From the sequence record MK373792.1: DNA of 64,000 nt, one strand, 5' to 3'. The translations under genes were made by a program, and so were the position numbers. This document shows, one piece after another, positions 888 to 46,731 of this stretch; position 1 is the stretch's first letter, and each line of letters opens with the position of its first letter. The notes beneath the pieces are model-generated. The model searched no databases. It worked only from the letters and a program-made list of their open reading frames with translations, and was not told where the DNA came from. The stretch comes from Escherichia phage vB_EcoS_VAH1.

Positions 888-1268
888 TTATTCCTCCTCT
901 TCGAGATTGGTATTGGGATCGTAAATTTTCTTGGCTCCTGTATTTAGGAATCGCTCTGCAAGTTGTGGGTGAATATCAAAGAACTCTGTGCATCCTTCGA
1001 ATCCCTTTAAATTACAGCGGTATTTCTTAAAGTAGATATGAGCAGCGGCTTCTAGATCTCTAGGATTATGGGTTTCATAAATCCCATACACGTATAAATC
1101 GTCAAAACCTCGATAGACTATCTTATCTAAGTTTAGTGTTTGAATCCTATTATGTGGATTCATACTGATACCGATCTTTGTTCTTTTAGGGATCTTCGTC
1201 AGATCCCTATTTGCAAGAATATATACTTTATATAGTGACATTCTTTCTAGCCTTGAGTTTGATACCAA
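888..1268 (-). CDS. T5orf172 (GIY-YIG-like) domain protein
   Basis: YKVYILANRD...KIGIS...GCTEFFDI pattern, shared with 14690..15301 and 46060..46731 C-termini. Confidence 0.5.
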   Translation of the reverse strand: MVSNSRLERMSLYKVYILANRDLTKIPKRTKIGISMNPHNRIQTLNLDKIVYRGFDDLYVYGIYETHNPRDLEAAAHIYFKKYRCNLKGFEGCTEFFDIHPQLAERFLNTGAKKIYDPNTNLEEEE

Positions 1269-3702: not shown

Positions 3703-4243
3703 TACTTATCTCCATTCTTAACTTTGAAAACTTATTATACCAAACTATGTGATTATCGTCAATTACAAATTTATGGTAACATGCTGGTACGGTATAAGTT
3801 CCATAATCCGTGACACGCTGCACAACCTTGTGTGCACACAGTCGACACCCATGCCCTTCTAAATGAGATCTAGCAGTTTGCCAGTAATAACCATCATGAT
3901 CTGGACAATAGATCTCGACTTGCTGTTGCATTGTCTTATAATTTACACGCTCATACCCGAAGAAAGCTCCATGAGCTGCAATGGCTTTCTTGATAAATAT
4001 AAGGTTTAGTGCTTCTTGTTGAAAGTCGGGGTGTAGTTGCTTAATCTTAGTTCTATTAATAGACCCATCCGATTTGATGAACCTATTTATTGGGAAGTTG
4101 TTAGCTTCCTCGATTAATAATTCATTTACTTTCTCTCTCATATTATATACTCTCACAACTAAGGTGGAAACATTCGTAAGCATCCCCAGTAAACTCTTTA
4201 TCTTGTAATAAGCACTTAGCCTGGTCTTCCGGTACTCCAGCAT
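3695..4243 (-). CDS. hypothetical Cys/His-rich protein
   Basis: CPDHDGYYW...GHGCRLCAHK possible metal-binding cluster. Confidence 0.4.
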   Translation of the reverse strand: MLEYRKTRLSAYYKIKSLLGMLTNVSTLVVRVYNMREKVNELLIEEANNFPINRFIKSDGSINRTKIKQLHPDFQQEALNLIFIKKAIAAHGAFFGYERVNYKTMQQQVEIYCPDHDGYYWQTARSHLEGHGCRLCAHKVVQRVTDYGTYTVPACYHKFVIDDNHIVWYNKFSKLRMEISSE

Positions 4244-4402: not shown

Positions 4403-4840
4403 TTAATGAAGCTGTTTACCACTTCTTAACATAGTGGCCGTTTCCATAAGACCTAGCGTAGCATCACGCTTATTGATCTGTTTACCAAGTTCATCAGTAC
4501 GTTTACTGATGTAAGCATTAATAGCCATATTCATAGCTGTAGCGAGATCTTCTTTGGTTATCTCTTCATCGTCTAAAGCTAATTTAGCCAAAGAATCAAA
4601 TGTGCTAGAGAGTCCTATAAGATCTGAGGTTTCTCCCGCCAAAATAAGATTAATATTATCTACTGTTACTTCTAGCATGGAGTTGACAATATCTTCACCG
4701 TCTATTAGACCAGTTTCAATATTACTCTCCCACTCCTTCATCTGCTCCAATAATGGATTTTTCTTTTCTGTCATGGTAGAGGTTTCCTGTGTCAGTCGGT
4801 AAGAATGATGATTGCGTTTTAGGTGGGTGTTGTTTAGCAA
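4403..4840 (-). CDS. hypothetical acidic protein (true start probably internal)
   Basis: Track ORF overlaps 4722..5183; internal Met likely. Confidence 0.35.
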   Translation of the reverse strand: MLNNTHLKRNHHSYRLTQETSTMTEKKNPLLEQMKEWESNIETGLIDGEDIVNSMLEVTVDNINLILAGETSDLIGLSSTFDSLAKLALDDEEITKEDLATAMNMAINAYISKRTDELGKQINKRDATLGLMETATMLRSGKQLH

Positions 4841-5183
4841 TCCAGTTAAGAATCAGCACGCGACTAGGAACAATATCGGTATTATACCAAAAATCGTGAA
4901 CCCATTGACGAGCATCTTCAAACTTACCAAATTTATATGCTTTCTTAAACAATTCAAATCCAAAACAATCTGGTGTAAAATCTACTTCGCGATATTGAAT
5001 TACTTTAGAACCAGTTAGGTCTTGTATCGCTGCATTAATTTCTGTATGTGAGAATTTTGTTTCATGAAACTTATTAAAGAATCGGTAGTTGAAGCGTCCG
5101 TTCGTTTCGACAAACAACTGGATGAAAAGATCGTTAAATTGGTTATCAAACCAGTAATTCTGTAGTTGTTGTAGTGCTGTCAT
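4722..5183 (-). CDS. hypothetical protein
   Basis: 153-aa ORF. Confidence 0.45.
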   Translation of the reverse strand: MTALQQLQNYWFDNQFNDLFIQLFVETNGRFNYRFFNKFHETKFSHTEINAAIQDLTGSKVIQYREVDFTPDCFGFELFKKAYKFGKFEDARQWVHDFWYNTDIVPSRVLILNWIAKQHPPKTQSSFLPTDTGNLYHDRKEKSIIGADEGVGE

Positions 5184-5380
5184 TTACGAACCCCGTTAAT
5201 CGCCATAATGATGCCTTCATACATAAAAGGAAGTAACCCAGAAGTATAGAATATATTTTCTGTTATTCCTAGATGTCGAAAAAGTATATTAAATAATGCT
5301 GTTAGAAATACAATCTGAGGCAGTAATACAAAATACTCAGTTACAATCTTTGGTGCCTGATAAACAAGACGTTTTACCAT
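5180..5380 (-). CDS. small membrane protein
   Basis: Two hydrophobic segments. Confidence 0.35.
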   Translation of the reverse strand: MVKRLVYQAPKIVTEYFVLLPQIVFLTALFNILFRHLGITENIFYTSGLLPFMYEGIIMAINGVRK

Positions 5381-5479
5381 TGTTTTTAAGTCTCCTTATT
5401 ACTTTGGCCTGCTCCACAATAATGAAAACTGCGAGCACTAATAGTGCTATTAGCCCCGCAGTAATTGGTACTAAATCAA

Positions 5480-7774: not shown

Positions 7775-8368
7775 TTAGACATTTATATCGCCACGTAATA
7801 CAGCAGCTACATCTTCCCCTATTTGTAATACTTCGCCAGTAGTACAATTAACTACTCTATCATAGCTAGTAAACTTACCAGACACAATATCCTCTAGTGG
7901 AATTGGAGTTTTACTCATTTCAAATGAGACATTAATATAACGTGGATCACGTAAAGAAGTAGTATGTACATGTCCGTGAATATTTAGTTTGCCACGAAGT
8001 TCATTAGGGTGCAAAGGGCAGTGAGATAGCCAAAACTTTTTGCCACCTCCAGTCTGTTTGCCTAGAGCTTGAATATCGTCATAAACTTCCGCTAAGTCCC
8101 TAATACTCAGTCCTTGACGCTCCGCATCATGATTACCCATAATGAGTTGATTAGGGACATTGTGGATAACCGACTTTAATTTGGCCAGACCTTCACGACC
8201 TACTGCAATATCTCCTAGCAAAATAAGTTTTGTTCGTTTACCAATATGCTTGGATAAAGTATCTAGAATATACTCATCGTGCTCTTTCATGTTCTTAAAC
8301 CACGGACGGAAACGTAGTGCTCCGGGGTGGTCTAAGTGCAAGTCTGACCAGAATTTAACCTTCATCAC
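7775..8368 (-). CDS. calcineurin-like metallophosphoesterase
   Basis: DLHLDHP, GDIAVGR, GNHD, GHVH motifs. Confidence 0.65.
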   Translation of the reverse strand: MMKVKFWSDLHLDHPGALRFRPWFKNMKEHDEYILDTLSKHIGKRTKLILLGDIAVGREGLAKLKSVIHNVPNQLIMGNHDAERQGLSIRDLAEVYDDIQALGKQTGGGKKFWLSHCPLHPNELRGKLNIHGHVHTTSLRDPRYINVSFEMSKTPIPLEDIVSGKFTSYDRVVNCTTGEVLQIGEDVAAVLRGDINV

Positions 8369-8653
8369 TTACTCCTTTTTTTGTATTAAATTATCAACCC
8401 AGGTAGTTAATACTCTAGTTTTAAACTCCTCGGGAGTCTCTCCTTCCTTAAGGTCTACCTCATTAAGGTAGGTAGTAAGCCTTGTTTCTATCTCTATTTC
8501 AGCAGGAGAATTAAAACAAAAATTGACTGCTATTCCAGAATATATTACTCCGGTATCTCCTTTGACGAAAGCATTAACTAATGCTCTCCAACGAAGGGCA
8601 TCAATACGCATTGCTCGTAATTCTTCTTGTACTTCTTTCATTCTATCATTCAT
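8369..8653 (-). CDS. hypothetical protein
   Basis: 94-aa ORF. Confidence 0.4.
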   Translation of the reverse strand: MNDRMKEVQEELRAMRIDALRWRALVNAFVKGDTGVIYSGIAVNFCFNSPAEIEIETRLTTYLNEVDLKEGETPEEFKTRVLTTWVDNLIQKKE

Positions 8654-9480
8654 TAAAGAATCCTCTGTACACCACAGCTATCTTCTCGAAGCGTGGTAAA
8701 TGTTGTGATTTTCCCAGTTTCATCATTAACTTGCGCAACCGTCAACTGCCCGTTGAAAACACCGCCAGTATCAAGATAAACACGGTTCTGGTATAAAATC
8801 GGGTAAGGTACTCCAGTATGCCCGTGAAACACGAAATCTACCCCTTTAACTTCTGGCACTTCTACCATGTATTTCTCTTTAAACCCTGCATAACGCTGGA
8901 AATATGAGTGTTCTTCACCATTTTTAGATAAGTGAAAACCTATTTCTTGGATTACATCTCGATCCCATAAGTATGGTTCAACATGGTATCCAGGATGGTC
9001 ATGTGGGTCTTCCTTAGATGCTTCTACTTGTGCAATAAGGTTATCCCATACTGGGGTTTCTACTTCGTTACCACATTCTTTGTACGTAAAAGGTACACCA
9101 CCATGAACAACACCATACTTTTTACCACGATGCAATACAGTCAGAAATACTGGCATTTTTTCAGCCATGTCTTCAGCAATATTTTTAATGGTATCTGCAT
9201 CTAGTTCATTCATAGCCCACATACCACCATTATACATCCAGTTAGCCCAATCTCCCACAATCATAAATTGGTCATGATTACCTCGGACACTGATAAAGCG
9301 TGGATTATACAGGAATTTGGCTAAAACTTGTAGGTTCTGCGTGCCTCGATCAATTAAATCTCCCACGCATACAACACAATCTTTCTTGCCGTTATAGCCA
9401 GCTAATTGTAGTGCATCTTCTAGTAAATCGTTACATCCATGAATATCACCAACGAAAAACAAGTTGGCGTCATCCGGCAC
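8653..9480 (-). CDS. serine/threonine protein phosphatase (PPP family, lambda-PPase-like)
   Basis: GDIHG, GDLIDRG, RGNHD, GH motifs; GTG start. Confidence 0.8.
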   Translation of the reverse strand: MPDDANLFFVGDIHGCNDLLEDALQLAGYNGKKDCVVCVGDLIDRGTQNLQVLAKFLYNPRFISVRGNHDQFMIVGDWANWMYNGGMWAMNELDADTIKNIAEDMAEKMPVFLTVLHRGKKYGVVHGGVPFTYKECGNEVETPVWDNLIAQVEASKEDPHDHPGYHVEPYLWDRDVIQEIGFHLSKNGEEHSYFQRYAGFKEKYMVEVPEVKGVDFVFHGHTGVPYPILYQNRVYLDTGGVFNGQLTVAQVNDETGKITTFTTLREDSCGVQRIL

Positions 9481-11676: not shown

Positions 11677-12090
11677 TTAAACTAGTTCGACATGACCGCC
11701 ATCATAGGTACCACGTTTTATTTCATCGTGATAGTCTCCCGAAGCATTCCAATCAGCACCAAAACGAAGTTTAATGCCTAGCTCTTTACCAGCTTGTTCA
11801 AAAGCCTTTTTAACTGCCCAAAATGCTTCTAAGTCATTCCAGTCAATTTTGCCATTAATATATGGAGCAAAATCGATAGCATCCCCAGTAATATGTTTGC
11901 TTTTACTAGGATCTTTTAGAAATGAAGTACCATTAGCAATGTTCTGGGCACTTTGTGCTACTGTACGAATACCTTGCACGATTGTGAAATCGTACGGAGA
12001 TAATTCTAAAGCCCTACGAGCTACTTTTTGTAGCTCGGGCTTAACGGTAGCTAATTGTTTTTCGCTATTTTTACCAAATTTAAAACTCAT
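11677..12090 (-). CDS. lys: endolysin, zinc L-alanyl-D-glutamate peptidase (M15 family)
   Basis: 137 aa; HITGDAIDF and DGGHVE zinc-ligand motifs as in T5-type endolysin. Confidence 0.8.
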   Translation of the reverse strand: MSFKFGKNSEKQLATVKPELQKVARRALELSPYDFTIVQGIRTVAQSAQNIANGTSFLKDPSKSKHITGDAIDFAPYINGKIDWNDLEAFWAVKKAFEQAGKELGIKLRFGADWNASGDYHDEIKRGTYDGGHVELV

Positions 12091-12392
12091 ATTGACCTAC
12101 CTAAAGATCTCTGTTGTGGGGAACAGAGCTTTGCTAAATATTCCTTGAACTGTTCAGAATCGGCTGTATCTACCGGATTATCTTTCCAAGCAATACCAAT
12201 GTACCCAGCATAGATATTTTTTAGATTGAAGTATGGACAAGTGTATATGTAATTAAAAGTAACGTTTTTAAACGCAGGTATATTTAACCCCATATATTTA
12301 TTTACTCTTACACTTAAATCCGATGCGTAGTTAAAGCCCTCTAAATGACGTCTGTATAATTCAGACGTTTTATTTACCGCTTTATCGGCCAA
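12087..12392 (-). CDS. hypothetical protein
   Basis: 101-aa ORF overlapping lys start. Confidence 0.4.
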   Translation of the reverse strand: MADKAVNKTSELYRRHLEGFNYASDLSVRVNKYMGLNIPAFKNVTFNYIYTCPYFNLKNIYAGYIGIAWKDNPVDTADSEQFKEYLAKLCSPQQRSLGRSI

Positions 12393-12472: not shown

Positions 12473-12796
12473 CTACAAAACAGCATCTGCACCCGTCTGA
12501 GAGAAGAGAACCATGCTCTTTTCCCTCGCCACATTAGGGAAGTTATCTATCCTCTGGGTTTGTAAATCCTGTAAAACTGCAGACGTGGAAAAAGTCTTTA
12601 AGAATGACATCACTTCACTAGTATTACTAACAAATAAGAAAATAATGACAGCAACTAAGATAGTTAGCAGACGTTTAAGAAGCGATGCTGGGTCTTTCGC
12701 TTCTTGGAGCAGTACTGTTAATAATTGTAAGAACTTTTCCAATTTGTAACCTCCTCTAACCAGTACCATTATACTAATTTTGGAGGAAAATTTCAA
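12473..12796 (-). CDS. membrane protein (holin candidate)
   Basis: Single TM LLTILVAVIIFLFV, upstream of endolysin. Confidence 0.35.
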   Translation of the reverse strand: MKFSSKISIMVLVRGGYKLEKFLQLLTVLLQEAKDPASLLKRLLTILVAVIIFLFVSNTSEVMSFLKTFSTSAVLQDLQTQRIDNFPNVAREKSMVLFSQTGADAVL

Positions 12797-12898
12797 TGGG
12801 TTTTTAAATGTTACACTTGGAGCACAAAATTATGTCGTTGTCAAGAAGAATTTTAGATAAAAGAAAAGCCAGGGTACTTAACCCTGGCTTAAAATTAC

Positions 12899-13497
12899 TT
12901 ACTCTTCGTTGTGCTCCTCGGATTGAGGTAACTGCGTTTTATTATATTGCTCAGATCGATATTTTGCCAAGATTTCAATACGTTTATGGATTTCCTTGCT
13001 ATCTAGATAGATATTTTTGTTGTCTTTTACCATCTCGTCGATTTCATCTATTGAGAAGAACGGATAGTAGACATCTAGCATCATATCTTCTACGAACTTG
13101 TTGTAAGATTCATAGGCTTTCTTGATTTCTTGACCTTTCTCACAGAACCCACCAGAGAACGTATGTCCCATTAGCGTAGCATGTGGATGTACTACCCATC
13201 CATGACAAGATAGGAAAATTGTGCAGTAAGCAGAAGCACTAGGACCAATCAGGTGTCCTATAACTGTTCCACGGCAATTAGCAATTAAGTTAGATAACTG
13301 TGCAGCGGTATCAACATAGCCACCAGGGCCATTAATCATCAGATTAATTTCGTCGTCCTCATTTGCCTGCATAAGTACCATTGATAAATCACGGTATTCA
13401 TCCGGCGGACCAAGTTCTTCATCAAAGAAAAAGGTATACTCGTTAGATTGGCGAATGGAGTGAAACAGGTTAGTCTTTTCTTTTTTTTATTAGTCAT
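12899..13497 (-). CDS. ClpP-like serine peptidase (S14), reading frame interrupted at an A8 run
   Basis: INGPGGYVD, GPSASAYC, HPHATLMGHTFSGG resemble ClpP; ATG with AAGGA RBS at 13495-13497 is in a different frame from the domain (from 13486 down). Confidence 0.6.
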
Positions 13498-13509: not shown

Positions 13510-14261
13510 TTATCCAACTAGTGGTTCTAGCTCTAAGTCACAGAAGTTATACACTTCTAGTTTAAGGTTATTGATACCATCGAATTTATTAACTAATTCG
13601 TGAGTAATATATTTTGCAGGAATACCACTTTCAGATGGATGATCTGATTTAATAGTGAACTTCTGCTCAGCGGGCACTACATTTACTAGTAAAGAATCCA
13701 TATCTAAATGGTTCGTTTCTCTGAGTAACTCTCCTTCATTGGGGAATCTCACATCTGTTATTACGGCGACATCTGGGTCGTCTTTAGCGATGGATTGCTC
13801 CAGAATTATGAGCCAAATGCGTTCATGTACCAGCTGCCTTCCTAGCTCTGTTCCTACGAGCTGTAACATTTTTCTCGGAGAAATAAATAAACTATAGAGT
13901 CCGTCTTCTTTATTCTCTGAGATAAGTTGTTGAGGATTAAGATATTTTTCCTCAAAAATCGGCCAAACGTACGAGAAGTCTTCAAACTTATCGATACCGT
14001 ATTTAAACCATACGTCTCTAGCTCGCTCCAATTGAGATTGTGTGACCGTAAACCATTGGTCAATCTCTTTCCCCTGCGCTCTCCTAGAAACTCTGGAGTT
14101 ACACCGAGGATTACGGATGCAAGTTCATAAACGGGCTTAGCAAAACTGTAACGACGGGGTAAACGCGTTGGATACGTGTCATTACACCAATCGATAATTA
14201 ATTTTGCAACAGTGTCTTTTCCAGAACCAGCCTCACCATGCAGACCTACTAATACTGACAT
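13510..14261 (-). CDS. deoxynucleoside monophosphate kinase, split into two overlapping frames
   Basis: N-part (track 13854..14261) has Walker A GEAGSGKDT; C-part (track 13510..14031) has ITDVRFPNE and SDHPSESGIP as in T4 gp1. Confidence 0.6.
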
Positions 14262-14614
14262 TAATCTTTCCTATTGTTAATGGGTGGATAGTAAACTAAG
14301 CAACGTTTTTCTTGTAAATCTTGGCGATAGAAGCAAACCATACTAGTCAGTCGTGAGATATATGAATATTCTGCCTCGCGGCATTTTGCTAACATATTCC
14401 AATCTTTATATGGTACAACAACTACTACGCCATCTTCGCCATTTGTAGCTAATTTCTTTTCGAATTTGAAATCAAAGCTACAAGGCTGAAGTCCTTTAGG
14501 CCAATCCACATGGGCTGTTGGTAGCTCATGTGTAGGTTCTGGCTTTATTTCTTGTGCACAGCCTGTGATTGTGATTGTGGCTGCGAGCAGTATTCCAAGT
14601 TTTATTTTGTGCAT
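14261..14614 (-). CDS. lipoprotein (lipobox ITGC), Pro-rich after the Cys
   Basis: MHKIKLGILLAATITITGC signal; possible o-spanin or exclusion lipoprotein. Confidence 0.55.
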   Translation of the reverse strand: MHKIKLGILLAATITITGCAQEIKPEPTHELPTAHVDWPKGLQPCSFDFKFEKKLATNGEDGVVVVVPYKDWNMLAKCREAEYSYISRLTSMVCFYRQDLQEKRCLVYYPPINNRKD

Positions 14615-14689
14615 CTACGCACCTCATAATGTGTTTCTATGTATTGTTCCACTTCTACTGGAGAAACATTGAAAAACTCTGTACTTCCA

Positions 14690-15301
14690 CTAAAACCCCA
14701 CATAACTGCATCTTTTATTTTTATAGATACTATGTAGGTCAGCTTCGATCTTAGCTGTTTCTTCCTTAGAACCCTTGCCACAAATATAGTAAGATGATAC
14801 TCTCAGGTCTTTAAAACCACTACAAGACTTAACTTCTAGAAGTCTTTTCTGCACATTCTTACTTATACCTATTTTTATGCCCTTATCGGAAACAAATATG
14901 TATAAAAATCCTTGTGTATCCCAAGCTGTTTTGGCACAATTTGGGCACCCACTATGGTGTAAAACGTGGTTAGTGGTTGTTTCCCACTGATGGGAACATG
15001 TATTACATAAAAACTTTAGCTTAGAAGTAGAATTAGTATATTCACTTAGTAATACGATTTTTCTAGGACTGAGGAGTGAGTTAATCCTGTCTTTGGTTAA
15101 CTTTTCATTGCCTGCACATTTTGGGCATCCTCTACCTTTATTTCTGACATTTGTAGGGGCTGTTAACCATGTATTAGAGCATATAAGACACTTAAATTGT
15201 GTCTTTGTCTTATTATGTTCATATTCCCCAACTAATCTTACTGTCCTACCTTGAGCTTCTAAGTCTTTATTAAAGATTTCTTTATTTATTTTTACGCTCA
15301 T
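14690..15301 (-). CDS. zinc-ribbon repeat + T5orf172 (GIY-YIG-like) protein
   Basis: Two CxxC...GCPxC ribbons then YIFVSDKGIKIGIS; same architecture as 46060..46731. Confidence 0.6.
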   Translation of the reverse strand: MSVKINKEIFNKDLEAQGRTVRLVGEYEHNKTKTQFKCLICSNTWLTAPTNVRNKGRGCPKCAGNEKLTKDRINSLLSPRKIVLLSEYTNSTSKLKFLCNTCSHQWETTTNHVLHHSGCPNCAKTAWDTQGFLYIFVSDKGIKIGISKNVQKRLLEVKSCSGFKDLRVSSYYICGKGSKEETAKIEADLHSIYKNKRCSYVGF

Positions 15302-15707
15302 CCCTACAGTACTCCAAGCTACCAGAAAGACATGCTAATCTTTCCTCGAACTCCTTACTCTGCTTTTTAGCAATTAATGTAACCAATCCAGGCTTTGCAG
15401 CTATAATATCTTGACGACTAAGTGCTTTATCAAGCTGGGAGATCTTCTTATCAAGATCTTGTTGAGAAATATTATGGAAAGTGAAATATTGATTCATACG
15501 TGTTTCACGTTGTTCACTTTCAACTTTAATCTTGTTTAAGGAGGTTTCTAGAGTAGAGATCTTATTAGTTGCTGCCGCGAGATCCCCTGCTAAAGTTTCC
15601 ACCTTATTTACTAGGTGATAAGCACCGAATCCGATGCCTATCGCCAAACCAGCTCCCAGGATATACCATTTACCTTGCCATAGAGAACTAATAAAGTTTT
15701 TTATCAT
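15282..15707 (-). CDS. N-terminal TM + coiled-coil protein (i-spanin-like)
   Basis: TM WYILGAGLAIGIGFGAY then heptad-rich region. Confidence 0.4.
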   Translation of the reverse strand: MIKNFISSLWQGKWYILGAGLAIGIGFGAYHLVNKVETLAGDLAAATNKISTLETSLNKIKVESEQRETRMNQYFTFHNISQQDLDKKISQLDKALSRQDIIAAKPGLVTLIAKKQSKEFEERLACLSGSLEYCRDERKNK

Positions 15708-16384
15708 CTTTTCATATTCCTGAATGACGTAACCGTATCAAATCCATGTGCTGCTAGGCGGTCTTTATCTGATACAGTAATCATATCAGGCTCACCAGTT
15801 CCTAGTACACCGAAGATATACTGTTCGAGAACTTGGTGCAAACGGTATAAGTTACTTTCAATTTCCTGCCACGGAATACCTGATAGGTGTAGACGCGGAT
15901 TAATTATAACCTTGAAGTATTTATTGTTATCTTTATCATTTGGAACTAATGAATCTAGAACTGCTAACGGTACTCTTAGCTCAGATAAGGCTTCTTTAGC
16001 CTTCGGGGTAACTTCTTCTTGCCACGATAAGATAGACTCTTTTGGCTTCCCTCTATTTATGTCTAGCAAAGAAAACCCTGTTGACCACCCATTCTCCTCT
16101 AAAATTTCTAACGCCTCGTCCAGGCTGAAGGTTTTTACTTGGGTATCTAGCACGTCAATGTGGTATAACCAGTAAATCTCTCCGGCTAGGAAGAAAGGCA
16201 AAATTTTAAAGTAGCCAATCTTTCCCTCGATACGAGCAATCCTACGTTCTTGCATGATCATATAGTTGCCATCATCTGGGGCTTTTATTGTTAGCTCTTC
16301 AGTTTTACGTTCCCAAACATGATCTGCATCGAATAAACTGTTCTGCAAATCATACACATCTGCAAATTTAGAAATGATTCTCAT
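15704..16384 (-). CDS. hypothetical protein
   Basis: 226-aa ORF. Confidence 0.45.
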   Translation of the reverse strand: MRIISKFADVYDLQNSLFDADHVWERKTEELTIKAPDDGNYMIMQERRIARIEGKIGYFKILPFFLAGEIYWLYHIDVLDTQVKTFSLDEALEILEENGWSTGFSLLDINRGKPKESILSWQEEVTPKAKEALSELRVPLAVLDSLVPNDKDNNKYFKVIINPRLHLSGIPWQEIESNLYRLHQVLEQYIFGVLGTGEPDMITVSDKDRLAAHGFDTVTSFRNMKR

Positions 16385-16538
16385 ATTTAATCCTCTTGCC
16401 TCAATCTATGAATATATTATACAAAAGTTTGGGCATCTATGCAACTAAAATTTTATTACAAAAATAGCCCAGTCGCAAAAGTGCAGGCTGGGCTTTGTCA
16501 TTATTTGCTTTTGCTAGTAAGTTGACTTAGTGTCAATC

Positions 16539-17278: not shown

Positions 17279-17571
17279 TTCAGATCCTTTTCATTAATTA
17301 GAATATTAGTAAACAGAGGGGCAAATCCTAAACTCATAGTAGGTCCAAATGTTTTCATGGCTATCCATAACTGCATAGTAATCATGCCATCTTTAATTTC
17401 TGGATCTTTGTATTCCCCAATACGGGTTTTGGCGAAAGCCACTATATCTGGATTATTTTTATTTTCCTGAATATAGTCATGCCAAAATTGTGTATTCTCA
17501 CTACGTAGGAATGTTAAAATATCCTTAGTTGCTGGAATCTGCACTGTGCTATTGATGTTTAGCTTTTTCAC
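17275..17571 (-). CDS. hypothetical protein
   Basis: 98-aa ORF. Confidence 0.4.
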   Translation of the reverse strand: MKKLNINSTVQIPATKDILTFLRSENTQFWHDYIQENKNNPDIVAFAKTRIGEYKDPEIKDGMITMQLWIAMKTFGPTMSLGFAPLFTNILINEKDLK

Positions 17572-17968
17572 GTTCTTCTCTCCTACGTTTGCATTCTTTC
17601 ATCATATGGGCTGCTACAACTTCATGGTAGTAGTCATTAATGTTATCTTCTGGCAAGAAATGCTTAATAGTCTCTAGCTGACAAATAACTCGATGAAGAT
17701 GGTTATTTGGTAGGCATAATTTCATACCCGCAACAAACCCAGAGAAGCCTGGAATACTGAACATGGGTTGGGCTTCTACTCTACCTTCAGAGTTGATATT
17801 AAGCTCAATTGAGATACCCATTTTCATGTTATAAAGCTGGCAGTATTCCCCGTTACCGGACCTTGACCAAACAGTGAAGTCCTCATCAATTTGATCTTGG
17901 ATTTCTGTAATTGCAAATTTAATTCTAGGATCTAAATTATTCATCTTCACCTTCAAAGTCGCAATCAT
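17549..17968 (-). CDS. hypothetical protein
   Basis: 139-aa ORF. Confidence 0.4.
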   Translation of the reverse strand: MIATLKVKMNNLDPRIKFAITEIQDQIDEDFTVWSRSGNGEYCQLYNMKMGISIELNINSEGRVEAQPMFSIPGFSGFVAGMKLCLPNNHLHRVICQLETIKHFLPEDNINDYYHEVVAAHMMKECKRRREEREKAKHQ

Positions 17969-46059: not shown

Positions 46060-46731
46060 ATGGTAAGAAAGAAAATAACTACAGAAGATGTGAACTTAGC
46101 ACTTGCTCCCAGAGGAATAATTATGCTAAGCACGTATATATCAGCTAAATCCAATGCTATATTTAAGTGCTCTAATGGGCATAGTTGGGAGGCTAGAGTA
46201 GATAATGTAAAAGGTGGGAGAGGTTGCCCTTATTGTGCTAGTCGTACTTTAGATCTTAAAGAGGTAAATGAATCCTTAGCTGCTCGTGGAATAAAGATGG
46301 AAGGTAAATACATCAATTCTAAGAGTAAAATTATGTTCAGCTGTGAGAATAATCATAGGTGGGAGTCTACACTTGATAGTGTTAGAAACCATAGTTCTGG
46401 TTGTCCTATATGTTTATTAGAGAAGGATAATTATCCTACTAACGTATATATTTTAATAAGTAATGTGGGAACCAAAATAGGAGTGTCTAGCAGAACTAAA
46501 GATAGACTCAGAGATATTAAAACTTCTTCTAACATACATGATTTAAAAATATTTAAGGAATATAGCTTTTCAGATAGATCAAAAGCTATACGTATTGAAA
46601 GAGAGGTCCATTTACAGTTTAAGGAATATAATTGTCAGTACAAAGATTTTGATGGTGCTACAGAATTTTTTAATATTGAGCCAGAAGTAGTAGCAAGGTT
46701 TATTGAGGAAATAATTAATGACAGAGAATGA
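46060..46731 (+). CDS. zinc-ribbon repeat + T5orf172 (GIY-YIG-like) protein
   Basis: CSNGHSWE...GCPYCA and CENNHRWE...GCPIC ribbons; C-terminus matches 888..1268 and 14690..15301. Confidence 0.6.
   Translation: MVRKKITTEDVNLALAPRGIIMLSTYISAKSNAIFKCSNGHSWEARVDNVKGGRGCPYCASRTLDLKEVNESLAARGIKMEGKYINSKSKIMFSCENNHRWESTLDSVRNHSSGCPICLLEKDNYPTNVYILISNVGTKIGVSSRTKDRLRDIKTSSNIHDLKIFKEYSFSDRSKAIRIEREVHLQFKEYNCQYKDFDGATEFFNIEPEVVARFIEEIINDRE

What the first reader, a model, noticed from the sequence alone, without database searches (positions are those of the whole stretch)
14261..15707. Spanin-like pair separated by an inserted T5orf172 nuclease gene
15282..15707 (N-terminal TM plus coiled coil) resembles an i-spanin and 14261..14614 is a lipobox lipoprotein with a Pro-rich segment after the Cys, like an o-spanin, but a zinc-ribbon/T5orf172 gene (14690..15301) lies between them and the endolysin is 2 kb away. 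This may be a split lysis cassette disrupted by a mobile nuclease gene; alternatively the lipoprotein is an exclusion factor.
Basis: inference. Interest (0 to 1): 0.45.

Follow-up and report, generated by a model that had tools for sequence, protein, structure and literature searches.

The report
T5-type spanin genes split by homing endonuclease
This is the ordinary pair of phage T5-family "spanin" lysis genes, pulled apart by a selfish homing-endonuclease gene that slipped into their overlap without damaging either one; the same arrangement was published in 2018 for two sister phages.

Summary
The window is a T5-like phage (Demerecviridae). 15282-15707(-) is the i-spanin and 14261-14614(-) is the o-spanin. 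They fall in PHROGs 739 and 812, the same families as T4 PseT.3/PseT.2, a pair that complements lambda Rz/Rz1. Between them lies a CapR zinc-finger + T5orf172 (GIY-YIG-type) homing endonuclease gene (HEG).

In T5 and about 430 other records the two spanin genes overlap by 70 nt and there is no HEG. Only 17 records carry it. The 718-nt insert brings a recoded 16-nt copy of its target, which restores the conserved i-spanin end ...LEYC. It also brings a new Shine-Dalgarno sequence, ATG and four codons for the o-spanin signal peptide, so both proteins stay intact. Identity profiles break at the HEG edges, as expected for homing with co-conversion.

The 2-kb distance to holin/endolysin is ancestral in the family and was not caused by the insert. 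The exclusion-factor alternative has no support.

Kongari et al. 2018 (PMC6139136) described this exact case in phages Shivani and phiR201, so it is already known.

One local peculiarity: the window's HEG has a +1 base in a T-run that cuts off its catalytic motif. Three neighbouring conserved genes (holin, Clp-like protease, dNMP kinase) carry similar single-base indels, so this is probably sequencing error.

The parts
15282..15707 (-). i-spanin (141 aa). It has an N-terminal TMD (about residues 15-33), a heptad coiled-coil region (36-60+), the conserved AKPGLV motif and the C-terminal ...RLACLSGSLEYC with two periplasmic Cys (126, 134). The last 7 residues (RDERKNK) are encoded by the insert.
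   Evidence: phrog_739 E 1.1e-35, the same PHROG as T4 PseT.3. blastp vs PseT.3: 24% identity, E 6e-5. Alignment with T5, Shiner, My1 and T4. Hydropathy and heptads. AF2 helix 3-77.
14261..14614 (-). o-spanin (117 aa). Outer-membrane lipoprotein with lipobox ITGC (Cys19), Ala at +2 and four periplasmic Cys (45, 78, 94, 105). The first four codons (MHKI) are encoded by the insert.
   Evidence: phrog_812 E 2.6e-29, the same PHROG as T4 PseT.2. blastp vs PseT.2: 30% identity, E 7e-9, with the C-terminal Cys pair aligned. Invariant G18 C19 H35 W38 P39 C94 Y96 R97 C105.
14602..15301 (-). Free-standing homing endonuclease gene with two CapR/DUF4379 zinc-finger DNA-binding modules and a T5orf172 (GIY-YIG-like) nuclease domain. 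In the window a +1 T at about 14695 stops the frame at 14690-14692, giving a 203-aa ORF (14690-15301). The intact form is 232 aa. Its start overlaps the i-spanin end by 20 nt. The intact form's stop would overlap the o-spanin start by 13 nt.
   Evidence: Pfam CapR 5.7e-13, DUF4379 3.7e-11, MUG113, T5orf172 positions 1-72/101. Intact NR01 copy covers T5orf172 1-98/101. phrog_681 endonuclease 1.4e-46. Alignments. All relatives are 666 nt over the 667-nt query.
14603..15321 (-). The inserted block: 719 nt here, 718 nt in relatives. It is absent from T5, HildyBeyeler and most other T5-like phages.
   Evidence: Three-way DNA alignment, junction listing, coordinates checked. In one search most records cover only about 70% of the query, in two pieces spanning 1683 nt.
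15306..15321 (-). Left copy of the target repeat, TAGCTTGGAGTACTGT. It is recoded (12/16 identical to the right copy) and supplies the i-spanin codons S-L-E-Y-C. Immediately upstream (15319-15333) is the remnant of the old o-spanin start, ATGTCTTTCTGG, now followed by TAG.
14587..14602 (-). Right (native) copy of the target repeat, AAACTTGGAATACTGC. It supplies o-spanin codons K5-L-G-I-L.
14612..14625 (-). New Shine-Dalgarno sequence (GAGGTG, 14620-14625) and new ATG (14612-14614) for the o-spanin. Both lie inside the 3' end of the HEG.
   Evidence: read directly from the sequence.
12866..12890 (-). Terminator-like hairpin after the Clp-like protease gene. It ends the transcription unit that holds the spanins and matches the terminator annotated in T5.
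   Evidence: T5 annotation.
12768..12796 (-). Promoter-like site (11/12 match) ahead of the holin-endolysin unit.
   Evidence: T5 annotated promoter at the equivalent place.
11677..12090 (-). Endolysin (T5 Lys-type M15 peptidase). It is context for the lysis system and not part of the insert event.

Best explanation
The two small genes are the T5-family (T4 PseT.3/PseT.2-type) two-component spanin.

How the spanin works. The i-spanin is anchored in the inner membrane by its N-terminal helix and reaches across the periplasm as a coiled coil. The o-spanin is a lipoprotein tethered to the inner leaflet of the outer membrane. The two bind through their C-terminal regions and are stabilised by disulfide bonds. 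Once the endolysin has removed the peptidoglycan mesh, the complexes fuse the two membranes, which is the last step of lysis. This mechanism is inferred from homology and was not tested here.

The ancestral layout. The two genes originally overlapped by about 70 nt, as they still do in T5.

What the HEG did. A free-standing homing endonuclease gene (two CapR-type zinc fingers plus a T5orf172 nuclease domain) inserted inside that overlap.
- At its 5' end the insert carries a recoded 16-nt copy of the target plus 7 codons and a stop. This completes the i-spanin through its conserved ...LEYC.
- At its 3' end it carries a Shine-Dalgarno sequence, an ATG and four codons. These restart the o-spanin signal peptide in frame.
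- The result is a chain of three overlapping genes (i-spanin, HEG, o-spanin) inside the early transcription unit 226-aa gene / i-spanin / HEG / o-spanin / dNMP kinase / Clp protease.

How the HEG spreads (inferred from the HEG paradigm). In mixed infections the endonuclease would cut HEG-less alleles at or near the intact overlap. It would then be copied in by recombinational repair together with short flanking tracts.

The window's own copy. It carries a +1 frameshift that removes the SGSTEFF motif, most likely a homopolymer sequencing error.
For: Shown here:
- Both proteins hit the same PHROGs as T4 PseT.2/PseT.3 and align pairwise with them.
- The o-spanin's C-terminal Cys pair, C94 and C105, aligns with the only two Cys in the T4 PseT.2 alignment. 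These are presumably the C87/C98 whose Ser mutants Kongari et al. assayed; their numbering was not mapped here.
- Topology features are present: TMD, heptads, and lipobox with Ala at +2.
- The pair is adjacent and overlapping, with no HEG, in T5 (70 nt), HildyBeyeler (70 nt), Klebsiella phage Shiner (88 nt) and Pectobacterium phage My1 (34 nt). All have the same downstream dNMP kinase, Clp protease, holin and endolysin. Overlap without a HEG is therefore ancestral.
- The HEG is present in only 17 of about 449 matching records.
- Junction anatomy shows the flanking 16-nt imperfect repeat, the dead old start codon and the new SD/ATG, and is identical in six HEG+ phages.
- The conserved i-spanin core ends at the second Cys, and the My1 protein ends one residue later. 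The replaced tail therefore lies in a variable zone.
- Identity profiles break at the HEG edges. Window vs IrisVonRoten drops from 99-100% to 83-89% at about 14600. Window vs NR01 rises from 93% to 99% at about 14600 and falls to 84% at about 15400.

From the literature:
- T4 pseT.3/pseT.2 complement lambda Rz/Rz1 mutants. T5 spanins overlap by 70 bp, and in Shivani and phiR201 they are separated by about 700 bp holding a GIY-YIG HEG (PMC6139136).
- CapR + T5orf172 proteins are a recognised HEG class that sits at recombination boundaries (PMC10448857).
Against: - No T5-family spanin has been tested experimentally as far as I could find. Function rests on homology to T4 (24-30% identity) and on topology.
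- Endonuclease activity and the cleavage site of this HEG are unknown.
- The o-spanin AF2 model is low-confidence (pLDDT 50). It supports the beta-alpha-beta description only weakly.
- As sequenced, the window's HEG is truncated, so in this genome it may be inactive.
- Neither spanin matches a Pfam or NCBIfam model. The assignment rests on PHROGs, pairwise alignment and published curation.
Confidence: 0.9

Rival explanations
1. The separated, HEG-containing arrangement is ancestral. On this view the overlapped T5 arrangement arose by precise deletion of the HEG through recombination between the flanking 16-nt repeats. Kongari et al. left this direction open.
For: Recombination between TAGCTTGGAGTACTGT and AAACTTGGAATACTGC would regenerate exactly the T5-type overlap. 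Loss is therefore mechanistically easy and has probably happened in some lineages. The published analysis did not decide direction.
Against: - Overlapped, HEG-less pairs occur in the three Demerecviridae lineages checked, including distant ones at 35-43% protein identity.
- The HEG is in only 17 of about 449 records.
- It is 98-99% identical between phages whose flanks are 84-93% identical, which indicates recent lateral spread.
Confidence: 0.05
2. The frameshift in the window's HEG is real. The gene would then be either a decaying pseudogene or a truncated protein that keeps the two CapR-type zinc fingers without the catalytic motif. Such a protein could act as a DNA-binding regulator, like the domesticated CapR of the Vibrio PLE satellite. 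The spanin genes would be left permanently separated.
For: - The +1 base is present in the sequence and is unique among 15 full-length copies.
- The truncated ORF keeps both zinc-finger modules and T5orf172 positions 1-72.
- Domestication of CapR/T5orf172 proteins is documented (PMC8096241 and PMC10448857).
Against: - The indel lies in a homopolymer.
- Three other conserved genes within 2.3 kb are split by window-specific single-base indels: holin, Clp-like protease and dNMP kinase. The holin and dNMP kinase indels are in homopolymer runs.
- Similar isolated A/T-run indels occur elsewhere in the window.
- A phage with a broken holin and a broken dNMP kinase is unlikely to be viable, so sequencing error is the economical explanation.
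Confidence: 0.1
3. The lipoprotein is a superinfection-exclusion or receptor-blocking factor like T5 Llp, and its position next to the TM protein is coincidental.
For: T5-like phages do encode a lipoprotein exclusion factor, Llp (my own knowledge). A small lipoprotein alone does not identify a spanin.
Against: - It is homologous to T4 PseT.2 with the conserved C-terminal CxYRQxLxExxC motif.
- It is always immediately downstream of, and usually overlapping, the i-spanin gene across Demerecviridae.
- It has no PADLOC match.
- Curated spanin work lists T5, My1, Shivani and phiR201 in one o-spanin family.
Confidence: 0.02

Closest known systems
Spanins of Salmonella phage Shivani and Yersinia phage phiR201 (Kongari et al. 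2018, BMC Bioinformatics 19:326, Fig. 6d-f)
   Same: [quoted passage not shown] The same roughly 700-bp insert with the same GIY-YIG/T5orf172 HEG sits at the same position. The HEG is 98.5% identical in nucleotides to Shivani and 86% to phiR2-01. The junctions are identical in phiR201; Shivani's were not fetched.
   Different: The window's HEG has a +1 frameshift. The flanking alleles are a different mosaic: the o-spanin side is IrisVonRoten-like, while the HEG and the 3' half of the i-spanin are LmqsSP1-like.
Phage T5 T5.045/T5.044 (Rz-like spanins, overlapped architecture)
   Same: The o-spanin is 97% identical and the i-spanin 78%. The neighbours are the same: dNMP kinase, Clp protease, holin and Lys.
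   Different: In T5 the genes overlap by 70 nt with no HEG between them. T5 instead has an HNH HEG (hegF, F-TflVI) directly upstream of the i-spanin and a different i-spanin N-terminal tail.
Phage T4 PseT.3/PseT.2 two-component spanin
   Same: The PHROG families are the same. Shared features are the TMD + helix i-spanin with the KPGLV motif, and a lipoprotein o-spanin with two C-terminal Cys. In both phages the spanin genes lie away from the holin and endolysin.
   Different: Identity is only 24-30%. T4 PseT.3 has no periplasmic Cys, whereas the T5-family i-spanin has two. The T4 genes overlap by just 4 nt.
CapR + T5orf172 free-standing HEGs of ICP1-like and T5-like phages (Barth, Nguyen & Seed 2023, PMC10448857)
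   Same: The domain architecture is the same, with repeated CapR-type zinc fingers followed by T5orf172. Both sit at boundaries of recombination tracts.
   Different: This HEG sits inside an overlap of two protein-coding genes and carries replacement codons for both. The usual site is an intergenic gap.

Membership tests
Two-component spanin, i-spanin component (T4 PseT.3 / T5 T5.045 family, phrog_739) | Sequence homology to an experimentally validated i-spanin | tested here: met
   phrog_739 E 1.1e-35. T4 PseT.3 hits the same PHROG at 1.3e-37. blastp vs PseT.3 gives E 6e-5.
Two-component spanin, i-spanin component (T4 PseT.3 / T5 T5.045 family, phrog_739) | Type II membrane topology: a single N-terminal TMD and a helical/coiled-coil periplasmic domain | tested here: met
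   The most hydrophobic stretch is residues 15-33. Heptad a/d positions run 36-60. The AF2 model has a helix at 3-77 plus shorter helices (moderate confidence).
Two-component spanin, o-spanin component (T4 PseT.2 / T5 T5.044 family, phrog_812) | Lipoprotein signal with a lipobox Cys and no inner-membrane retention residue (Asp) at +2 | tested here: met
   The N-terminus is MHKIKLGILLAATITITG|C, with Ala at +2. G18-C19 are invariant across T5, Shiner, My1 and T4.
Two-component spanin, o-spanin component (T4 PseT.2 / T5 T5.044 family, phrog_812) | Homology to a validated o-spanin, including the two C-terminal Cys that Kongari et al. mutated in T4 PseT.2 | tested here: met
   phrog_812 E 2.6e-29. 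blastp vs PseT.2: 30% identity, E 7e-9, with C94/C105 aligned to the T4 Cys pair. The T4 Cys mutagenesis is in PMC6139136.
Two-component spanin (pair) | Genetic linkage of the i- and o-spanin genes (embedded, overlapped or separated), conserved in relatives | tested here: met
   The genes are adjacent or overlapping in T5, HildyBeyeler, Shiner and My1. They are separated by the HEG in seven genomes, counting the window.
Two-component spanin (pair) | Function: required for outer-membrane disruption, and complements lambda Rz/Rz1 | not testable with these tools
   This needs a lysis assay. It has been shown only for the T4 homologues (PMC6139136).
Free-standing homing endonuclease gene (T5orf172 / GIY-YIG class) | Nuclease domain of the family is present and complete | tested here: inconclusive
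   The window ORF covers T5orf172 positions 1-72/101 and lacks the SGSTEFF motif because of the +1 frameshift. The 232-aa form in relatives covers 1-98/101. The frameshift is probably a sequencing artefact.
Free-standing homing endonuclease gene (T5orf172 / GIY-YIG class) | Presence/absence polymorphism at one precise site among otherwise collinear genomes | tested here: met
   17 of about 449 records carry it, always at the same junction in those inspected.
Free-standing homing endonuclease gene (T5orf172 / GIY-YIG class) | Signs of lateral spread: the HEG is more similar than its flanks, with co-conversion tracts | tested here: met
   The HEG is 98.7-99.1% identical between phages whose flanks are 84-94% identical. 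Breakpoints lie at about 14600 and about 15400.
Free-standing homing endonuclease gene (T5orf172 / GIY-YIG class) | Site-specific cleavage of the HEG-less allele and biased inheritance in co-infection | not testable with these tools
   This needs a cleavage assay and mixed-infection crosses.

The most novel reading that the evidence does not exclude
If the +1 frameshift is real, the window holds a nuclease-dead remnant that keeps both CapR-type zinc fingers and is translationally chained between the two spanin genes. That would be either a snapshot of HEG decay that fixes a permanently separated spanin architecture, or a domesticated DNA-binding protein analogous to PLE CapR. More modestly, the recoded 16-nt target copy and the built-in replacement start for the o-spanin show how a HEG can colonise an overlap of two needed genes and reversibly convert overlapped spanins into separated ones. 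The 2018 description left both the mechanism and the direction open.
Probability: 0.1. Interest if true: 0.35.

Novelty: already known. Interest (0 to 1): 0.12.

Why it matters
It matters little beyond correct annotation. The locus should be labelled i-spanin / homing endonuclease / o-spanin. Several GenBank relatives mislabel these genes or leave them hypothetical.

The case is a tidy textbook example of a selfish endonuclease gene invading overlapping genes without harming them. The insert brings its own replacement codons and a start site. This shows one concrete route between the overlapped and separated spanin gene architectures. The added detail here (outgroup polarity, flanking repeat, dead old start codon, breakpoints) sharpens a published observation but does not change it.

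Tried and rejected
- Pfam and NCBIfam gave nothing for either spanin. Only PHROGs and pairwise comparison with T4 were informative.
- PDB sequence searches found no solved relatives for the spanins or the HEG.
- The single-sequence AF2 model of the o-spanin was poor (pLDDT 50) and was not used for fold searches. The i-spanin model is only moderate.
- PADLOC gave no meaningful hit, which argues against the exclusion/defence reading.
- I did not run the large homology or metagenome searches, because the phage collection and the literature already settled the question.
- I considered that the 2-kb separation from the endolysin reflects disruption. I rejected this because T5, Shiner and My1 have the same spacing and the same intervening genes.
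- I considered that the HEG+ state is ancestral. I rejected this on outgroup and frequency grounds, although precise loss through the flanking repeats is plausible.
- Two paper-tool calls failed because a search term was too short. One Pfam call failed on a frameshifted reference. One T4 fetch was the wrong region.
Full report
**What the window is.** A megablast of 14000-16400 finds 449 phage records. Nearly all are T5-like Salmonella and Escherichia siphoviruses of the Demerecviridae. The best full-length matches are NR01, Shivani, SHSML-45 and LmqsSP1, at 92-95% identity. These annotate the same three genes as i-spanin / hypothetical or endonuclease / o-spanin.

**Checking the observation.**
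- The 141-aa product of 15282-15707 has its most hydrophobic 19-mer at residues 15-33. It has a regular a/d heptad pattern V36/L39/L43/A46/I50/L53/L57/I60. A single-sequence AF2 model is one long helix from 3 to 77 followed by short helices (pLDDT 67).
- The 117-aa product of 14261-14614 has a lipobox ITG|C at Cys19, Ala at +2, and four Pro in the first 25 mature residues.
- The ORF between them has two CapR/DUF4379 zinc-finger stretches and a T5orf172/MUG113 domain.
- The M15 endolysin is at 11677-12090, 2.17 kb away.

**What the two small proteins are.** PHROGs places the lipoprotein in phrog_812 (E 2.6e-29) and the TM protein in phrog_739 (E 1.1e-35). Both families are labelled "Rz-like spanin".
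- T4 PseT.2 and PseT.3 fall in exactly these two PHROGs.
- In pairwise comparison the lipoprotein is 30% identical to PseT.2 (E 7e-9). The motif C-[FY]-Y-R-Q-[DE]-L-x-E-x-[RK]-C aligns, so Cys94 and Cys105 match the only two Cys in the T4 alignment. These are presumably the C87/C98 that Kongari et al. mutated; their numbering was not mapped here.
- The TM protein is 24% identical to PseT.3 (E 6e-5) and shares the KPGLV motif.
- Kongari et al. 2018 showed that pseT.3/pseT.2 complement a lambda Rz/Rz1 double amber, and they assayed Ser substitutions of the two PseT.2 cysteines (PMC6139136).
- tblastn finds both window proteins in about 540-550 phage records, always in Demerecviridae-type genomes. 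These include distant Klebsiella, Pectobacterium, Proteus, Providencia and Serratia phages at 35-43% identity.
- Invariant o-spanin positions across T5, Shiner, My1 and T4 include the lipobox G-C, H35, W38-P39 and the C-terminal Cys pair.
- In the i-spanin, the motif R-L-[AS]-C-x-[ST]-G-x-x-x-x-C is conserved within Demerecviridae.

**The arrangement in relatives lacking the nuclease.**
- In T5 itself, T5.045 (i-spanin, 147 aa) and T5.044 (o-spanin, 117 aa) overlap by 70 nt. The same holds in HildyBeyeler/Bas33.
- In Klebsiella phage Shiner the overlap is 88 nt. In Pectobacterium phage My1 it is 34 nt.
- In all of these the gene order is: about 230-aa hypothetical gene, i-spanin, o-spanin, dNMP kinase, Clp-like protease, then holin and endolysin. 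T5 has an annotated terminator and promoter between the Clp and holin genes.
- The window has a matching terminator-like hairpin at 12866-12890(-) and a promoter-like site at 12768-12796(-).
- The 2-kb distance between spanins and endolysin is therefore the ancestral family layout, not a consequence of the nuclease gene. The overlapped, HEG-less state is ancestral.

**Anatomy of the insertion.** Aligning the window with NR01 (HEG+) and HildyBeyeler (HEG-) shows a clean 718-nt block present only in the HEG+ genomes. It is 719 nt in the window, at 14603-15321. The junctions are the same in six HEG+ phages: the window, NR01, IrisVonRoten, phiR2-01, LmqsSP1 and R2. Read on the sense strand:
- The HEG-less allele is ...GC ATG TTT AAC TGG | AAA CTT GGA ATA CTG CTC GC... 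(T5).
- In HEG+ genomes the left junction is ...GC ATG TCT TTC TGG | TAG CTT GGA GTA CTG TAG GGA TGA GCG...
- The right junction is ...GAGGTGCGTAG ATG CAC AAA ATA | AAA CTT GGA ATA CTG CTC GC...

From this anatomy:
- The insert is flanked by an imperfect 16-nt direct repeat. The left copy is TAGCTTGGAGTACTGT (15306-15321) and the right copy is AAACTTGGAATACTGC (14587-14602), 12 of 16 identical.
- The left, recoded copy lets the i-spanin read S-L-E-Y-C, as in T5 (N-L-E-Y-C). Seven new codons (RDERKNK) and a stop then follow, overlapping the HEG start by 20 nt.
- The old o-spanin ATG survives at 15331-15333 but now runs into TAG after four codons.
- A new Shine-Dalgarno sequence (GAGGTG, 14620-14625) and ATG (14612-14614) inside the HEG's 3' end restart the o-spanin as MHKI-KLGILLAA..., instead of MFNW-KLGILLAA....
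- The i-spanin conserved core ends at the second Cys, and My1's protein ends one residue after it. The replaced tail is therefore in a naturally variable zone. This explains why the insertion is tolerated.
- Recombination between the two 16-nt copies would regenerate the overlapped arrangement, so loss is also easy.

**Evidence that the middle gene is a mobile homing endonuclease gene.**
- It occurs in only 17 of about 449 records, in both Tequintavirus and Epseptimavirus.
- Its architecture, CapR-type zinc fingers plus T5orf172, is the HEG class described by Barth, Nguyen and Seed 2023, who found such genes at boundaries of genetic exchange (PMC10448857).
- Sliding identity shows those boundaries here. 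Window vs IrisVonRoten is 96-100% through dNMP kinase and o-spanin, then drops to 83-89% exactly at the HEG edge (about 14600).
- Window vs NR01 and R2 is 92-94% in the o-spanin and 97-100% in the HEG. It stays high for about 100 nt into the i-spanin, then falls to 84% and 75%.
- Window vs LmqsSP1 is 99-100% from the HEG through 15495 but only 92-96% in the o-spanin.
- This is the pattern expected for homing with short co-conversion tracts. Cleavage specificity and biased inheritance were not testable.

**The window's own peculiarity.**
- All 14 full-length HEG matches span 666 nt against the 667-nt query.
- The extra base is a T in a T-run at about 14695 on the sense strand (GGGGTTTTAG versus GGGGTTTAG). 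It creates a TAG at 14690-14692.
- The product stops at ...SYVGF, just before the conserved S-G-S-T-E-F-F motif. It covers T5orf172 positions 1-72 of 101, whereas the intact 232-aa form covers 1-98.
- By family knowledge, the Glu in that motif is the catalytic residue of GIY-YIG/T5orf172 enzymes (PMC10448857).
- The same 2.3-kb stretch has window-specific single-base indels that split the holin (12481), the Clp-like protease (13483) and the dNMP kinase (14071). The holin and dNMP kinase indels are in homopolymer runs.
- Isolated A/T-run indels also occur elsewhere in the window.
- A phage lacking holin and dNMP kinase is implausible, so I read all of these as homopolymer sequencing errors. Only the reads can settle this.

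**Comparison with what is known.**
- Kongari et al. 2018 described precisely this situation. In their T5 spanin family, T5 and six others are overlapped (70 bp). [quoted passage not shown] The i-spanins differ only at the extreme C-terminus and the o-spanins only in the first residues of the signal sequence (PMC6139136).
- The window's HEG is 98.5% identical to Shivani's and 86% to phiR2-01's.
- That paper left open whether the HEG was inserted or deleted. The outgroup synteny, rarity, high HEG identity and junction anatomy shown here favour insertion into an ancestral overlap, with possible secondary losses. This is a refinement, not a new finding.

**Verdict.**
- The exclusion-factor alternative is rejected.
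- The "disrupted cassette" nuance is corrected: both spanins are intact, and the distance to the endolysin is ancestral.
- The feature is already known and of low interest, apart from being a clean illustration of how a selfish gene can colonise overlapping genes.

Noticed in passing
window 12481, 13483, 14071, 14695 (also 12745 and 12880-12882; elsewhere 9514, 22648, 27198, 30378): Single-base indels unique to the window, most in homopolymer runs. They split the holin (12087-12392 / 12473-12796), truncate the Clp-like protease N-terminus (12899-13381, against about 194-199 aa in relatives), split the dNMP kinase (13510-14031 / 13854-14261) and truncate the HEG. This looks like homopolymer sequencing error rather than biology.
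   Followed up: partly
window 15666-15707; L003 (T5) 8246-8743; L006 and L007 4205-4705: There is a second HEG site at the 5' end of the i-spanin. T5 (hegF, F-TflVI, HNH), LmqsSP1 and R2 carry an HNH HEG directly upstream. Exactly those three have the i-spanin N-terminal tail MRKWFVDLVWNNKM instead of MIKNFISSLWQGKW, which the window, NR01, IrisVonRoten and HildyBeyeler have. In some phages the i-spanin gene is therefore bracketed by two independent HEG sites, each linked to a remodelled protein end.
   Followed up: partly
window 46072-46707 (+) and 939-1187 (-): These are paralogues of the CapR + T5orf172 endonuclease. One is full-length at 35% identity (E 4e-34). The other is a T5orf172-domain-only match (E 1e-9).
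   Followed up: no
L006 (LmqsSP1) 4702-5400 and 3783-4208; several records: Public annotations are inconsistent. LmqsSP1 labels the upstream 232-aa hypothetical gene 'i-spanin' and leaves the true i-spanin as hypothetical. Several records call the o-spanin 'i-spanin', and many leave both as hypothetical.
   Followed up: no
window 15884-16291 (inside the 226-aa gene 15704-16384): The middle of the conserved upstream gene (phrog_4243, unknown function) does not align with T5, IrisVonRoten or LmqsSP1, but it does with NR01 and HildyBeyeler. This is another mosaic allele boundary next to the spanin locus.
   Followed up: no
window 17549-17968 vs L001 7569-8084 / L003 10639-11151: Where T5 (hegE) and NR01 carry an HNH endonuclease gene, the window has a 139-aa ORF of unknown function, as in phiR2-01 g043. 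This is one more variable HEG slot in the same early region.
   Followed up: no
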